In this document: piece by piece, positions 12-31,471 of the stretch | Numbering within the stretch: the first letter of the stretch is position 1 | Layout of the letters: every line of letters begins with the position of its first letter | From: Nitrospiraceae bacterium | GTDB lineage: Bacteria > Nitrospirota > Nitrospiria > Nitrospirales > Nitrospiraceae | Assembly (NCBI GenBank): GCA_050246315.1 | Contig: JBFWWG010000005.1 | Coordinates: 192,001-256,000, forward strand | Length of the DNA: 64,000 nt | Reading direction: 5' to 3' | Notes under the pieces: generated by a model | The model's input: only the letters and a program-made list of their open reading frames with translations | The model's database searches: none | Told to the model about the DNA's origin: nothing | Program-made: the position numbers and the translations under genes

Positions 12-362
12 GTGGTCGTGGCAGGCGTGGTCAGCCTGCTGGCCGGTGGGTCTTGTGCCAACCAGGAGGCCGGAACGACCCCAGCCGATGTCCAAAAGGG
101 CGAAGGGCTCTTCAAAGCGAACTGTTTCCGTTGTCATGGAGAGCGGGGAGCCGGTACCGCTCAGGGGCCGCCGCTCGTCCACAAGATCTACGAGCCGAAT
201 CACCACGCTGACGCAGCGTTTCAGCGAGCGGCCGCCAGCGGGGTTCGGGCGCACCATTGGCAGTTTGGAGATATGCCCAAGATCGACGGCGTGACGCCGC
301 AGGAAGTGGCGGAGATCATCCGATACGTGCGATGGCTGCAACGCCAGGCCGGAATTTATTGA
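12..362 (+). CDS. Monoheme cytochrome c, probable lipoprotein; true start probably upstream of the window
   Basis: CxxCH (CFRCH), hydrophobic N-terminus ending in Cys, distal Met candidate in HHWQFGDMP. Confidence 0.85.
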   Translation: MVVAGVVSLLAGGSCANQEAGTTPADVQKGEGLFKANCFRCHGERGAGTAQGPPLVHKIYEPNHHADAAFQRAAASGVRAHHWQFGDMPKIDGVTPQEVAEIIRYVRWLQRQAGIY

Positions 363-398: not shown

Positions 399-428
399 TT
401 GACAGTCTGATTTTCCGATGCGTAAGCT
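399..428 (+). promoter_or_regulatory. Putative sigma70 promoter upstream of the repeat array and SPFH gene
   Basis: TTGACA (399-404), 18-nt spacer, TAAGCT (423-428). Confidence 0.5.
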
Positions 429-458: not shown

Positions 459-837
459 CCGGCGGCTATTGGGCAGAGGACAAGGAGAGAAGAGGCTTGT
501 GACGCGCCTTCTCCGGCTGCCGCAAACCATGTGGGTGGCAACCGATTCAACCGCAGGTGATGGAGGCAAGCGATGCAGACCCGTTACAGTGTTTTTCTCC
601 GCCCGACATGACCCATGTGATGAGTGGCCGATCCAACGAAGGTTCGTACGGAGAAAGACGAGAGAAATCCTGTGGGGGATGGGCTTCGGCCACCAGGAGC
701 AATCGAAGGGCGGCTGGTTCAACCGAAGGTTGGATTCAATATGAAAAGAGGCCAAGAAACTGTAGGGTTTCTCCGGCGGCGTCAATGGGGAGGGGCTGCG
801 CCCAATGTGCCGCCGGCTCAACCGAAGGTTGGTATGG
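459..837. repeat. Tandem array of four structured repeat units (509-560, 595-646, 681-733, 765-832) plus a half unit (459-479); candidate ncRNA array
   Basis: Each unit is TTCTC-like lead, GC-rich stem, variable interior, complementary stem, then a CAACCGAAGGTTG-like hairpin; hairpins recur at 548, 634, 720, 819. Confidence 0.8.
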
Positions 838-845
838 AGGACCTT

Positions 846-1688
846 ATGCGGAATGGAATGCAGGCCTGTGTCTTGACGTCCGCCATGCTGGGCGTGATGA
901 CCCTCTCCGCGGGCTGCGCCCTCGTGGCGATCGATGCGGGACATGAAGGAGTCATGGTCGAAAAGCCATTCTTCTTCGGACATGGGGGAGTCGATCCCGA
1001 CCCGGTCAAGACAGGCCGCCAGACGGTGGCCATCACGACGCAGGTGATCGATGTGGATGTGCGTCCGATCCAATATTCGGAGCACTTCGACATCATCTCG
1101 TCGGAGAACGCGCCGGTGTCGTTTGACGCCTTCATGATCGCGAATGTGATCGAGGGACGGTCGCCGGATCTCATCAGCCGATTCGGACCGAACTGGTATG
1201 CGAACAACGTGAAGGAGGCCTTTCGTACGATGGTCCGGGAAGAGGTCCAGAAATACCCGCTCTTTCAGTTGACCACTGATCCCACCACCCGGACGAAATT
1301 GCAGGAAGCTATCGCCCAGCAATTGCGCGTGAACTTGCTGGAGAAGCAGAACATCCCGGTTCGTCTCAATCGGGTCGTCGTCGGCAGCATCTTGCCACCC
1401 AAAGGCGTGCTGGAACAGACCGCCCAAACGATCATTCAGGAGCAGCGCCGTATCACGATGATCGAATTCCAGAAAGCCGAAGAGGCCCGGGAGAAGGCCG
1501 AGAAGCAGCGTGGCATCGCAGACCGCGCCTATCGGGAGGCCCTAGGGCTCACCGCGCCGGAATTCGTGGATTTGCGCCGCATCGAAGTCCAGAAGGAGAT
1601 CGTGCAGCATTCGCCGTCGGCCCTGACCGTCATCATGGGATTGGAGCGAATGGGGATCAACCTCCCTCCGTTAGGATCGGAGAAATAA
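846..1688 (+). CDS. SPFH/band 7/prohibitin-family protein, possible lipoprotein
   Basis: GGAGG at 836-840 before ATG 846; hydrophobic N-terminus with LSAGC; SPFH-like core and coiled-coil C-terminal region (KAEEAREKAEKQR). Confidence 0.8.
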   Translation: MRNGMQACVLTSAMLGVMTLSAGCALVAIDAGHEGVMVEKPFFFGHGGVDPDPVKTGRQTVAITTQVIDVDVRPIQYSEHFDIISSENAPVSFDAFMIANVIEGRSPDLISRFGPNWYANNVKEAFRTMVREEVQKYPLFQLTTDPTTRTKLQEAIAQQLRVNLLEKQNIPVRLNRVVVGSILPPKGVLEQTAQTIIQEQRRITMIEFQKAEEAREKAEKQRGIADRAYREALGLTAPEFVDLRRIEVQKEIVQHSPSALTVIMGLERMGINLPPLGSEK

Positions 1689-12168: not shown

Positions 12169-12296
12169 GATGGTTATGCGGATCAGGGTTCATGATGAAA
12201 TGGGCGATGCCGACGCTGAGACCATGCTACGACAATGGGATCGAAATCGGGAAGAGGACGAAAGTAGGGGGCTGTGAAGGATCAATCGTACCGGAA

Positions 12297-12460
12297 GGTC
12301 CTCTCCGGCGGCGGCAATGGGGAGGGCTGCACCCGATGAGCCGCCGGTTCACACGAAGGTGAATTATCTGGAAGTGAAGGAATCACTTGAGGGGTTCTCG
12401 GCGGGCGGCAATAAAGAGAGGCTCCGCCTGAATAGCCCGCCGATCAACCGAAGGTTGGTA
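12297..12460. repeat. Two structured repeat units (12297-12363, 12391-12458) of the same family as 459-837, directly 3' of tRNA-Arg
   Basis: CCGGCGGC/GCCGCCGG and CGGCGGGC/GCCCGCCG stems, each followed by a CGAAGGT-containing hairpin. Confidence 0.8.
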
Positions 12461-12537
12461 TGGTGCCCCCGACACGAATTGAACGTGCGACACGCGGTTT
12501 AGGAAACCGCTGCTCTATCCAACTGAGCTACGGGGGC
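12461..12537 (-). tRNA. tRNA-Arg(CCT)
   Basis: Reverse complement GCCCCCGTAGCTCAGTTGGATAGAGCAGCGGTTTCCTAAACCGCGTGTCGCACGTTCAATTCGTGTCGGGGGCACCA folds as a cloverleaf, encoded CCA. Confidence 0.96.
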
Positions 12538-29333: not shown

Positions 29334-29419
29334 GGTCAGGTACCCAAGTGGCCAACGGGGGCAGACTGTAAATCTGCTGCTTACGAGCTTCCAAGGTTCG
29401 AATCCTTGCCTGACCACCA
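29334..29419 (+). tRNA. tRNA-Tyr(GTA)
   Basis: Cloverleaf with long variable arm, CTGTAAA loop, GGTTCGAATCC, CCA. Confidence 0.96.
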
Positions 29420-29485
29420 TCACCAAGCTCCGGACGAGCCGGAATTAAGAGCTGCTATCTCCAGAGGTGGTCGAAAAAGATCGAG

Positions 29486-29560
29486 GCGGGCGTAGCTCAG
29501 TGGTAGAGTCCCAGCCTTCCAAGCTGGCTGTCACGGGTTCAAATCCCGTCGCCCGCTCCA
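29486..29560 (+). tRNA. tRNA-Gly(TCC)
   Basis: GCGGGCG/CGCCCGC acceptor stem, CTTCCAA loop, CCA. Confidence 0.97.
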
Positions 29561-29689
29561 AAAAGAAGATGTCAAGCGGTTACTCGCGAAACGTCACTCG
29601 TCGGAAAGCGGACCGGCTAGAGCAAGAGGCTAGCGGTTTTTTGTTGTATGGGTATTGACCGTTGACGCATGGCGAATGACAGTGGATGT

Positions 29690-29765
29690 GCCCACGTAGC
29701 TCAGTTGGTAGAGCACGTCCTTGGTAAGGACGAGGTCACGCGTTCGATCCGCGTCGTGGGCTCCA
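29690..29765 (+). tRNA. tRNA-Thr(GGT)
   Basis: GCCCACG/CGTGGGC acceptor stem, TTGGTAA loop, CCA. Confidence 0.97.
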
Positions 29766-29880
29766 TCCAACCTATGCTCGGACCGGCCGGTTGGGTTCGC
29801 GCACGCGTAGTCGGGTCGGTGTCTGCAGGCGGGACGGAGTCTTAATTTAATCGGCACGAATATTCCAGGGGGAGCAAGCG

Positions 29881-31086
<1,206 letters not shown>

Positions 31087-31173
31087 CAAGACCGTCAATC
31101 ATTATGGGTCGATCGAGTCAGGAAGGTCACGGTGCGATTGACCCTTGACGTGTGACGAATTACGGGGGCTTTC

Positions 31174-31323
31174 ATGCGCGAAATTATTGATCTGGCATGC
31201 ACCGAATGCAAGCGTCGGAACTACTCGACGATGAAGAACAAGAAGAACGACCCGGACCGCCTTGAGTTGAAAAAGTTTTGTCGATCCTGCCGAAAGCACG
31301 TGCCGCACAAGGAAGTGAAGTAA
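31174..31323 (+). CDS. rpmG: 50S ribosomal protein L33 (zinc-binding form; below ORF-track cutoff)
   Basis: [17 protein letters not shown]...[19 protein letters not shown]. Confidence 0.97.
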
Positions 31324-31395
31324 GTGGTGAGGCTGGGGAGTGCAGGGCGGGAGTGCGCTATGAGCGCTCAGCACTCGTTTCTCAGCATTGAGGAG

Positions 31396-31471
31396 AGGGG
31401 CATGGTGTCAATGGCTAGCACATCGGTCTCCAAAACCGAGAGTCTAGGTTCGAATCCTAGTGCCCCTGCCA
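31396..31471 (+). tRNA. tRNA-Trp(CCA)
   Basis: AGGGGCA/TGCCCCT acceptor stem, CTCCAAA loop; canonical position before secE. Confidence 0.96.

What the first reader, a model, noticed from the sequence alone, without database searches (positions are those of the whole stretch)
459..837. Tandem array of covarying structured RNA-like units in front of the SPFH gene
Seen: four units at 86, 86 and 99 nt spacing plus a half unit. Read on the minus strand each has a small hairpin (CAAC-CUUCG-GUUG or variant), 1-3 nt, a GC-rich stem enclosing a variable interior, then GAGAA/GAAG. Stems differ in sequence yet keep pairing: CCGGCGGC/GCCGCCGG (773-780/809-816), CGGUUGCC/GGCAGCCG (544-537/521-514), CAGCCGCC/GGUGGCCG (716-709/694-687, one mismatch); unit 595-646 is more degenerate. 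Interiors and inter-unit linkers vary. Inference: a conserved scaffold with variable inserts suggests an array processed into several small RNAs, or a multi-site protein-binding leader. The interior of the unit at 765-832 exposes CCCCUCCCC, an anti-Shine-Dalgarno-like tract reminiscent of alphaproteobacterial cuckoo sRNAs. I do not recognise the motif as a described family. A + strand promoter at 399-428 means a leader role in the other orientation is also possible.
Basis: partly seen in the sequence, partly recalled or inferred. Interest (0 to 1): 0.88.

Follow-up and report, generated by a model that had tools for sequence, protein, structure and literature searches.

The report
Dispersed hairpin repeat piled up in an mRNA leader
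The "RNA array" in front of the SPFH gene is a stack of copies of a roughly 95-base hairpin-forming repeat that Nitrospira-type genomes carry about a hundred times, always between genes and typically right after the CCA end of tRNA genes or right before ribosome-binding sites, so it looks like selfish or expanding DNA that is co-transcribed with the gene, not a dedicated small-RNA locus.

Summary
The units are real and their stems covary (94% of cells paired, 9 of 17 pairs changed on both sides). No Rfam family matches. But they are not a local array. The same ~95-nt unit occurs 128-135 times in 84 intergenic places of this 4.39-Mb genome and in 22 of 24 sampled genomes of the same family. Stem mismatches show no strand preference. 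Unit number differs between close relatives at the same loci, including this one. Junctions are strikingly exact: 12 of 46 tRNA genes and the tmRNA gene are followed directly by a unit after CCA, and 22 of 47 intact array ends abut GGAGG plus a start codon. At the SPFH gene the array lies between a conserved promoter-like box and the ribosome-binding site, and RNA-library contigs bridge array and gene. So the + strand leader reading fits better than a minus-strand sRNA array. Best reading: an apparently undescribed, site-preferring, non-autonomous repeat; its mobilising enzyme is unknown.

The parts
399..428 (+). Promoter-like box TTGACA-N17-(G)TAAGCT in front of the array
   Evidence: Read. 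The block is nearly invariant in four same-genus sequences, and a similar TTGACT...TAAGGT box stands upstream of SPFH in G004, which has no units. It is not called by the consensus scan, whose second-hexamer threshold it misses. RNA-library contigs begin at 447, 449 and 457. This is a weak hint only.
459..483 (.).
   Evidence: Not found by model R1 at E<=1. By eye it resembles the 5' half of the long stem plus interior, written on the + strand, that is, inverted relative to the other units (inference). In the predicted leader fold, 459-466 pairs with 809-816.
486..566 (-). Unit A, decayed copy
   Evidence: R1 16.7 bits, E 0.0062. Relatives G001 and G003 have better-preserved copies in the aligned columns.
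575..655 (-). Unit B, strongly decayed copy (approximate limits)
   Evidence: Not detected by R1 or nhmmer. Recognisable by eye and by alignment with units in G001 and G003.
660..741 (-). Unit C, decayed copy
   Evidence: R1 25.0 bits, E 1.6e-5. In G001 and G003 the homologous unit is the one that abuts the SD.
747..840 (-). Unit D, well-preserved copy. On the + strand its end reads GGTA|TGGAGG, so it abuts the SPFH ribosome-binding site
   Evidence: R1 94.8 bits, E 2.1e-27. It is present in G000 and G002:C31 and absent (a ~99-nt gap) in G001 and G003.
836..1688 (+). SD GGAGG (836-840), ATG at 846 and the SPFH-type gene to the stop at 1688
   Evidence: Orthologues share 77-99% identity. G004 and G007 have their own GGAGG SD and no units.
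12279..12370 (-). Unit E, distal unit of the second array
   Evidence: R1 57.5 bits.
12374..12466 (-). Unit F. It starts TACC directly after the CCA of the tRNA-Arg gene
   Evidence: R1 89.0 bits. The junction GGGCACCA|TACCAACC is seen.
12461..12537 (-). tRNA-Arg gene whose encoded CCA end abuts unit F
   Evidence: Rfam tRNA 64 bits at 12464-12537. ARAGORN places it at C5:204461-204537.

Best explanation
The units are copies of a lineage-specific, non-coding interspersed repeat of about 95 nt. In the sense of the window's minus strand, each unit reads TACC, a 5-bp/3-nt-loop hairpin (P1), an 8-bp G+C-rich stem (P2) enclosing a variable interior that often holds a third small hairpin (P3), then AGAAAC...CCAGTGATT and a pyrimidine-rich tail. 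The repeat populates intergenic DNA of Nitrospiraceae-type genomes and grows into head-to-tail arrays. Shown: copy number, intergenic location, uniform orientation within arrays, covarying stems without strand bias, unit gain and loss between close relatives, and exact junctions (...CCA|TACC...) at tRNA and tmRNA 3' ends and, on the other strand, immediately 5' of TGGAGG Shine-Dalgarno boxes. Inferred: new copies are placed by a sequence-specific DNA process that acts 3' of an NCCA-type site. This resembles single-strand hairpin transposons of the IS200/IS605 or REP kind, which insert next to a short fixed sequence without a target duplication. Arrays then also change by tandem duplication and deletion. 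The hairpins would be kept because the mobilising or recombination machinery, or DNA/RNA stability, needs them, not because one RNA strand is a dedicated gene. At this locus four and a half units accumulated between the SPFH promoter and its ribosome-binding site, so they are carried on the + strand as a ~400-nt structured 5' leader of the SPFH mRNA. Behind tRNA genes the opposite strand of the same element is the one lying downstream of the gene. Any regulatory effect, such as a hairpin 3 nt upstream of the SD or protection of the mRNA 5' end, would be a by-product or later co-option and is untested.
For: Dispersed family: 28 exact copies of the 13-mer hairpin; 135 nhmmer hits in 84 arrays, of which 51 are single, 20 double, 9 triple, 3 quadruple and 1 quintuple; 128 CM hits. 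All 33 multi-unit arrays have one orientation throughout. 34 of 51 unit spacings are 82-100 nt. None lies inside a confidently called gene; 8 of 84 overlap an ORF only through an over-extended start (my own crude gene caller). Structure: 94% paired, 9 of 17 pairs with double-sided changes, 0 of 500 shuffles reach the score. No strand bias in mismatches. Distribution: hits in 22 of 24 other genomes of the same family. Copy numbers run from 1 to 98 or more; 0 of 6 and 0 of 5 in two other families of the order, and 2 of 5 (weak) in a third. The exact 20-mer sits in records titled Nitrospira, Nitrospiraceae, Nitrospirae or Nitrospirota in 79 of 80 listed rows. Turnover at the SPFH locus: 4 units in G000 and G002:C31, 3 in G001, G003 and G002:C1, 0 in G004 and G007. 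A 3-unit array in G001 stands against an empty site in G000. Unit numbers also differ at further shared loci against G001 and, at 95-97% flank identity, against G002. Junctions: 37 of 47 intact array ends read GGTA|TGG; 22 (+1 doubtful) of 47 abut SD plus the start of an ORF of at least 60 aa (counted by eye from the printout). 12 of 46 tRNA genes are followed directly by TACC plus a unit and 2 more by degenerate units. The tmRNA gene is too. Empty tRNA-Thr sites in G004 and G003 and an empty tRNA-Cys site in G016 show that the CCA is native and the unit starts at T. Leader: the promoter-like box is conserved. Contigs from RNA libraries of two studies bridge 449-1640, 457-1651 and 447-980.
Against: No mobilising enzyme was found. 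The 8 Y1_Tnp (PF01797) loci of this genome are not flanked by units, and no TnpB-type domain was found. Neither Y1_Tnp nor RVT_1 co-distributes with the repeat: G007 has 80 units and no match to either, G004 has 31 units and no RT, and G019 and G020 have 0-1 units but 5-7 Y1 matches. Only one clean filled/empty pair at a protein-gene site was obtained, between genomes about 80-85% identical, so the exact boundaries and the absence of a target duplication are weakly supported. In G004 and G007 the SPFH SD is not preceded by T, so the CCA-target reading needs an unobserved ancestral state there. Array persistence at the same loci across a genus, and the same tRNA-Thr and tRNA-Cys junctions across genera, could also mean retention by selection. 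RNA contigs show neither strand, ends nor level, and DNA can be present in RNA libraries. Orientation against GC skew gave no independent replication-strand bias of the kind reported for IS200/IS605 elements.
Confidence: 0.8

Rival explanations
1. The units are functional cis-acting RNA modules of 5' leaders (+ strand here). Each places a stable hairpin a few bases upstream of the Shine-Dalgarno box, or offers repeated binding sites for an RNA-binding protein. They would tune translation or mRNA stability and have spread because they are useful.
For: 22 (+1) of 47 intact array ends sit exactly at SD plus start codon. In co-directional gene pairs the gene-sense orientation is favoured 39 to 18. 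The array lies inside the stretch bridged by RNA-library contigs. It is retained at the SPFH locus in all four same-genus sequences. The + strand of unit D folds into P1 and P2, with UCUCC upstream and GGAGG downstream able to close a junction.
Against: The same element in the opposite sense follows 12-14 tRNA genes and the tmRNA gene, and 17 arrays lie between convergent genes, where a leader role is impossible. There is no G-U over A-C excess on either strand. Upstream units at this locus have decayed. Orthologues in G004 and G007 work without any unit. Single-unit folds are not outstanding on the + strand (z -1.3, -0.6, -1.2, -2.3). The flank CCTCC and the internal GGAGA do not covary (by eye).
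Confidence: 0.2
2. One reading: a minus-strand transcript carrying several scaffolded units that is processed into small RNAs with variable, anti-SD-like interiors.
For: The minus strands of units D and F fold better than shuffles (z -3.0 and -3.1). Behind tRNA genes this is the sense that would be co-transcribed. Interiors are variable and pyrimidine-rich (a run of at least 6 in 96 of 135 units).
Against: No promoter-like site on the minus strand in 300-1100 (0 found). CCTCC is in the interior of only 11 of 135 units. Mismatches are balanced between strands. At this locus the minus strand is antisense to a leader that RNA-library contigs join to the SPFH gene. There is dispersed REP-like copy number and unit turnover and decay.
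Confidence: 0.05
3. RNA-end-mediated spread. Unit RNA is copied by a template-switching polymerase onto the mature 3' CCA ends of tRNAs and tmRNA, and the cDNA is then recombined into the genes' flanks. This would explain why junctions coincide with mature RNA 3' ends and why arrays are head-to-tail.
For: All 12 clean tRNA junctions and the tmRNA junction are exactly at the encoded CCA, the mature 3' end. Arrays are strictly head-to-tail.
Against: SD-type junctions would need antisense RNAs ending at CCUCCA. RVT_1 does not co-distribute: G007 has 80 units and G004 has 31, with no RT match in either. This genome has only 2 RT matches.
Confidence: 0.07

Closest known systems
REP / BIME / REPIN elements with RAYT (TnpA-REP) transposases of proteobacteria (recalled; the background on Y1 subclasses comes from passages of PMC6006769)
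   Same: High-copy, extragenic, G+C-rich imperfect palindromes. Stems are kept through compensatory changes. They are co-transcribed with neighbouring genes and are lineage-specific.
   Different: The unit is about 95 nt with two to three hairpins instead of 20-40 nt. Arrays are strictly direct, never inverted pairs. No Y1 gene is flanked by units and there is no co-distribution with Y1_Tnp. The Y1 genes present are about 310 aa, which I read as the long C-terminally extended kind that PMC6006769 describes as lacking nearby REPs. I did not test that domain.
IS200/IS605-family elements and their non-autonomous derivatives (PATEs) (recalled)
   Same: Hairpins near the end, no terminal inverted repeats, and insertion directly 3' of a short fixed sequence (here NCCA). 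No evident target duplication in the one clean pair.
   Different: No parental IS with these ends, no TnpB, no replication-strand bias detectable, and tandem arrays are the rule.
Mycobacterial interspersed repetitive units, MIRU-VNTR (recalled)
   Same: Head-to-tail arrays of 50-100-nt units in intergenic regions of co-directional genes. Unit number differs between close strains. They are often placed between a stop codon and the next gene's start region.
   Different: MIRUs are described as carrying short ORFs coupled to the flanking genes and are not defined by hairpins or by tRNA-CCA junctions. ORF content of these units was not tested.
Correia/NEMIS elements of Neisseria and other MITEs (recalled)
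   Same: About 100-150-nt repeats near gene starts, co-transcribed, able to alter expression.
   Different: Those have terminal inverted repeats and a TA duplication. This unit has no TIR (consensus). A true TIR-bounded MITE family does exist in this genome and is distinct.
Cuckoo-type alphaproteobacterial sRNAs with CCUCCUCCC loops
   Same: Unit D exposes CCCCUCCCC in its interior on the minus strand.
   Different: The motif is not conserved in the family (11 of 135 units). No Rfam hit. No evidence of independent transcription.

Membership tests
Any Rfam 15 RNA family | Match to a curated covariance model at or near its gathering score | tested here: not met
   Whole window at gathering score: only 5 tRNAs. 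For 300-1000 at E<=10: one weak ssnA match at 326-360 (15.6 bits vs 37.3 needed), outside the units.
REP/REPIN (RAYT-associated) | High-copy extragenic imperfect palindrome | tested here: met
   135 and 128 copies, all intergenic, with paired stems.
REP/REPIN (RAYT-associated) | Copies arranged as inverted pairs or alternating clusters | tested here: not met
   All 33 multi-unit arrays have one orientation.
REP/REPIN (RAYT-associated) | A Y1 transposase gene flanked by the repeats and co-distributed with them | tested here: not met
   8 Y1_Tnp loci with no unit within about 1.5 kb (best nhmmer E 0.69). G007 has 80 units and 0 Y1 matches; G019 and G020 have 0-1 units and 5-7 Y1 matches.
MITE | Terminal inverted repeats | tested here: not met
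   The consensus ends TACCAACC... and ...CCAGTGATT(CTTCTCC) are not complementary (by inspection).
MITE | Target-site duplication | tested here: inconclusive
   One filled/empty pair. At most a 1-4-nt C-rich ambiguity (CTCC / TTCC) between genomes about 80-85% identical.
IS200/IS605-derived non-autonomous element | Insertion immediately 3' of a fixed short sequence | tested here: met
   CCA|TACC in 37 of 47 intact array ends. 12 of 46 tRNA genes plus the tmRNA gene. Empty tRNA sites in relatives.
IS200/IS605-derived non-autonomous element | A parental IS with the same ends encoding TnpA and/or TnpB | tested here: not met
   No PF07282 match. Y1 loci lack the units.
MIRU-type VNTR | Head-to-tail intergenic arrays whose unit number varies between close strains | tested here: met
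MIRU-type VNTR | Short ORFs in the units coupled to flanking genes | not tested
   Not examined. Unit lengths of 82-100 nt are not a fixed multiple of three.
Anti-SD (cuckoo-like) sRNA | Conserved CCUCC-type tract exposed in a loop | tested here: not met
   CCTCC in the interior of 11 of 135 units.
Anti-SD (cuckoo-like) sRNA | Independent transcript with its own promoter and terminator | tested here: inconclusive
   No consensus promoter or terminator on either strand in 300-1100. Contigs cannot show strand.

The most novel reading that the evidence does not exclude
A new kind of site-specific, enzyme-orphan mobile hairpin element. It recognises the 3' side of NCCA, hitting the encoded CCA ends of a quarter of all tRNA genes and the tmRNA gene and, on the other strand, the 5' edge of TGGAGG ribosome-binding sites. 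It thereby installs stacks of hairpins in mRNA leaders and tRNA trailers across the nitrite-oxidising Nitrospiraceae. It would be moved by a mechanism not tied to Y1 transposases or reverse transcriptases (possibly a host enzyme or an RNA-end-based process), and some copies would be co-opted to set translation or stability of the genes behind them.
Probability: 0.2. Interest if true: 0.7.

Novelty: new variant of a known kind. Interest (0 to 1): 0.45.

Why it matters
For this finding, it replaces an attractive "new structured sRNA array" with a more ordinary explanation and shows which strand is probably transcribed. More broadly, Nitrospira are key nitrifiers of wastewater plants and soils. 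A repeat present about 100 times per genome, sitting directly on ribosome-binding sites and tRNA ends and changing in copy number between close strains, has three consequences. It is a likely source of expression differences. It could cause assembly breaks in metagenome bins. It could serve as a strain marker of the VNTR kind. The exact CCA junctions also offer a clean handle for finding the unknown mobilising activity.

Tried and rejected
(1) Rfam at gathering and permissive thresholds: nothing for the units.

(2) UUCG-tetraloop argument for the minus strand: rejected. The 13-mer pairs as 5 bp with a 3-nt loop, and each strand carries one G-N-A-type triloop hairpin (P1 on +, P3 on -), so loops do not tell the strand (the GNA-loop stability is recalled).

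(3) A hairpin CUGGAG/CUCCGG after the long stem ('P4'): rejected. Column 79 varies without compensation and only 365 of 726 cells with letters pair.

(4) Y1 transposase as partner: no flanking units and no co-distribution. TnpB: none. Reverse transcriptase: no co-distribution.

(5) Genes between oppositely oriented arrays as candidate transposases (C4:222041-222673 and C5:186896-187276). By my reading of the translations they are a response regulator and an acylphosphatase-like protein. No family search was run.

(6) GC-skew test for a replication-strand bias: weak and explained by gene orientation.

(7) A loose regular-expression census of hairpin plus stem: too many false positives (190 hits), not used.

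(8) Consensus promoter and terminator scan of 300-1100: 0 and 0. The conserved TTGACA-N17-TAAGCT box misses the scan's second-hexamer rule.

(9) RNA-library contigs: parts upstream of 447 have little cover and short high-depth pieces at 809-840 belong to other copies of the repeat. Neither is used as evidence.

(10) Earlier notes of this scan: nothing for this genome or sequence.

(11) Literature: five full-text searches found no description of this element: Nitrospira + 'repetitive extragenic palindromic'; + 'miniature inverted-repeat transposable'; + 'intergenic repeat'; + 'non-coding RNA'/repeat/intergenic; and MITE/Shine-Dalgarno/'downstream of tRNA'/hairpin. One search was rejected for a badly formed term. 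PMC12306157 lists N. moscoviensis only in a table of palindrome counts (passages). PMC5217627 concerns a Methanopyrus motif (passages). Supplements were not opened. R-scape and CMfinder were not available and not run.

Full report
**1. What is at 459-840**

On the minus strand each has four parts: a 13-nt hairpin (CAACC-TTC-GGTTG or a variant), 1-3 nt, an 8-bp G+C-rich stem around a variable interior, then AGAA. No Rfam family matches. The whole window at gathering scores gives only five tRNAs. A permissive scan of 300-1000 gives one weak ssnA match at 326-360, outside the units.

I aligned 43 copies (A1) and built a covariance model (R1). In the window it finds these hits, all on the minus strand:

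| Coordinates | Score (bits) |
|---|---|
| 747-840 | 94.8 |
| 660-741 | 25.0 |
| 486-566 | 16.7 |
| 12374-12466 | 89.0 |
| 12279-12370 | 57.5 |

The unit around 575-655 and the half unit at 459-483 are not detected.

**2. It is a genome-wide repeat family**

- The 13-mer hairpin occurs 28 times in the 4.39-Mb genome.
- A profile built from those copies finds 135 units in 84 places: 51 single, 20 double, 9 triple, 3 quadruple and 1 quintuple. R1 finds 128.
- All 33 multi-unit arrays have one orientation.
- 34 of 51 spacings are 82-100 nt. Ten are exactly 47 nt, from a recurrent composite in which a unit cut after its inner hairpin is followed by a full unit.
- With a crude codon-usage gene caller of my own, no array lies inside a gene. 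Eight of 84 overlap an ORF only because my caller takes the first possible start.

**3. Structure is conserved, but on no particular strand**

On A1, 94.0% of cells pair (83.4% in shuffles). Nine of 17 pairs show changes on both sides (62 cells against 19.9). None of 500 shuffles reaches the covariation score, and sliding the partners drops pairing to 25-47%.

Over all 135 units, G-U and A-C mismatches are balanced: long stem 42 vs 38, inner hairpin 20 vs 18, small hairpin 3 vs 6. An RNA gene read from one strand should tolerate G-U but not A-C. Balance is what mutation gives when neither strand, or both, is under selection.

The small hairpin has a 3-nt loop, so the UUCG-tetraloop argument for the minus strand fails. 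The CCCCUCCCC tract of unit D is not a family trait: CCTCC occurs in 11 of 135 interiors.

**4. Where copies sit**

By my gene calls, 57 arrays lie between co-directional genes. In 39 of these the window's + strand sense equals the gene sense; in 18 it is opposite. Another 17 lie between convergent genes and 8 between divergent genes.

The ends are remarkably exact. Of 47 arrays whose end is intact, 37 read GGTA|TGG on the gene-sense strand. Sorted by what follows that end (my count by eye from the printout):

| What the array end abuts | Arrays |
|---|---|
| GGAGG-type Shine-Dalgarno box plus the start of an ORF of at least 60 aa | 22 (+1 doubtful) |
| The 3' end of a tRNA gene on the other strand (8), the tmRNA gene (1), or a tRNA fragment (1) | 10 |
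| The 5' end of a tRNA gene | 1 |
| Inside another repeat (section 9) | 7 |
| Nested in another unit | 4 |
| Other | 2 |

ARAGORN finds 46 tRNA genes, 45 of which encode CCA. Twelve are followed directly by TACC plus a unit and two more by degenerate units. The tmRNA gene ends at C1:202840, and a 3-unit array covers 202545-202845. By chance TACC would follow 46 given positions about 0.2 times.

The window's second locus is one of these cases: tRNA-Arg ...GGGCACCA|TACCAACC....

**5. Turnover between relatives**

R1 hits 22 of 24 other genomes of the same taxonomic family. Counts are 93-98 in the three same-genus genomes (a lower bound, because only 103 candidates were scored), 80 in G007, 34 in G016, 31 in G004, and 0-14 elsewhere. 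It hits none of 11 genomes in two other families of the order and gives two weak hits among five in a third. One of the two family genomes without a hit, G009, is unpublished, so that tally partly rests on it.

The SPFH locus differs between genomes:

| Genome | SPFH protein identity | Units at the locus |
|---|---|---|
| G002:C31 | 99% | 4, as in the window |
| G001 | 97% | 3 |
| G003 | 96% | 3 |
| G002:C1 | 97% | 3 |
| G004 | 82% | 0, with its own GGAGG SD |
| G007 | 77% | 0, with its own GGAGG SD |

The alignment shows that unit D (744-840) is an extra ~99 nt between the former proximal unit and the SD.

Of 20 G001 loci compared, one gave a clean filled/empty pair. Three units lie in G001 between a stop codon and the next gene's SD, where G000 (C9:135982) has nothing. 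The junction reads CCTCC(A)|TACC and shows no clear duplication.

Against G002, whose flanks are 95-97% identical, unit number differs at several shared loci: 1 vs 2, 2 vs 1, 4 vs 2, 3 vs 1. Two neighbouring G000 units at C19 share a rare hairpin variant where G002 has one unit, which points to tandem duplication as a second way of growth.

Across genera, tRNA-Thr(UGU) carries a unit in G000, G001 and G016 but not in G004 or G003. tRNA-Cys carries one in G000-G004 but not in G016. The empty sites show that the CCA is native and the unit begins with T.

**6. Which strand is expressed here**

Upstream of the array, TTGACA-N17-TAAGCT (399-428) is nearly invariant in the genus, and G004, which has no units, has a similar box. 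The simple scan does not call it.

Contigs from RNA libraries of two studies cover 449-1640, 457-1651 and 447-980, that is, array plus SPFH gene in one piece. Two of them carry adapter-like loose ends at their left end (that the loose letters are adapter is my recollection). Contigs show neither strand nor level, and DNA can contaminate RNA libraries, so this is a weak but consistent hint. It suggests the array is the ~400-nt 5' leader of the SPFH mRNA, read from the + strand. Behind tRNA genes the other strand of the same element lies in the trailer. An element that is transcribed in either sense depending on where it landed is a DNA-level entity.

**7. How it probably works**

- **Shown.** A structured repeat with exact CCA|TACC junctions, gains and losses of whole units, and no strand-specific RNA signature.
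- **Inferred.** Copies are placed 3' of an NCCA-type site by a sequence- and structure-specific DNA process, as hairpin-ended single-strand transposons do, and arrays then breathe by duplication and deletion.

Targeting of CCA explains three things at once. The first is tRNA and tmRNA ends. The second is ribosome-binding sites, because TGGAGG is CCTCCA on the other strand. The third is nesting after CCTCT inside other units.

What I could not find is the enzyme:

- Eight Y1-transposase loci exist, but none has a unit nearby.
- There is no TnpB.
- Neither Y1 nor reverse-transcriptase genes follow the repeat's distribution: G007 has 80 units and no match to either.
- GC-skew gave no independent replication-strand bias.

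A bolder alternative is copying onto mature RNA 3' ends by template switching. It fits the tRNA and tmRNA junctions but not the SD junctions, and it lacks an RT.

**8. Function**

A regulatory side effect is possible. The last hairpin ends 3 nt before the SD. UCUCC upstream of the long stem could pair with GGAGG. The whole leader folds somewhat better than shuffles (z -2.2). Against a required function: units are absent from the orthologous leaders of G004 and G007, older units decay, and single-unit + strand folds are unremarkable.

**9. Comparison and novelty**

The family shares traits with REP/BIME elements, IS200/IS605-derived hairpin elements and MIRU-type VNTRs. It meets the full definition of none of them (see the membership table).

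Five full-text searches found no description of it. Supplements were not opened and subscription journals are not covered. I rate it a new variant of a known kind: ordinary as a class, and unusual in its CCA/SD junction precision and strictly direct arrays.

In passing I found a second, true MITE family in this genome. It has 16-nt terminal inverted repeats and 46 complete copies of 139-416 bp. Some carry an embedded unit and have spread it at 97-100% identity.

Noticed in passing
G000:C5:191575-191873 (127-425 nt before the window's first base) and 45 other places, e.g. C9:114596-114958, C1:354471-354770: A second repeat family. TIR-bounded MITE-like elements of 139-416 bp with 16-nt terminal inverted repeats (181 TIR matches at up to 2 mismatches, 46 complete pairs). 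The longer copies carry one or two embedded hairpin units, and these composites are 97-100% identical between contigs. None lies next to a Y1 transposase gene, except one TIR 914 nt from C5:134258.
   Followed up: partly
G000:C1:202545-203186: The tmRNA gene (tag ANQELALAA) is followed directly after its CCA end by a 3-unit array, like the tRNA genes.
   Followed up: partly
G000:C2:515440-515760 versus C2:507736-507825: A 3-unit array abuts a 3' fragment of a tRNA-Ser-like gene about 7.6 kb from an intact tRNA-Ser. This looks like the duplicated attachment site of an island that integrated into the tRNA after the array was there.
   Followed up: no
G000:C20:16382-16708, C4:264748, C4:302449, C1:569545 and four weaker loci: Eight Y1_Tnp (IS200-like) matches, the four best in open frames of 307-328 aa (311 aa from the first ATG at the one locus I read), much longer than a plain IS200 TnpA. 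Not flanked by either repeat family. Passages of PMC6006769 describe a long Y1 subclass with a DnaA-C-like tail and no nearby REPs. I did not test the tail.
   Followed up: partly
window 459-466 with 809-816: In the predicted fold of the + strand leader, the CCGGCGGC of the 'half unit' pairs over 340 nt with the 3' half of unit D's long stem. The half unit looks like an inverted fragment of a unit.
   Followed up: no
G000: ten places, e.g. C9:27660-27793, C9:29276-29411, C13:28421-28548, C6:37637-37773: A recurrent composite: a unit cut after its inner hairpin (...GCCCCTCT), followed after exactly 47 nt by a full unit of another subfamily. This looks like one nested insertion that was then propagated as a block.
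   Followed up: partly
window 29334-31468: Four tRNA genes (Tyr, Gly, Thr, Trp) in the window have no unit behind their CCA, although Gly and Thr genes with the same 3' ends elsewhere do. Occupancy looks stochastic.
   Followed up: no
window 326-360: Weak ssnA RNA match (15.6 bits, E 0.43) inside the end of the cytochrome c-like ORF. Most likely chance.
   Followed up: no
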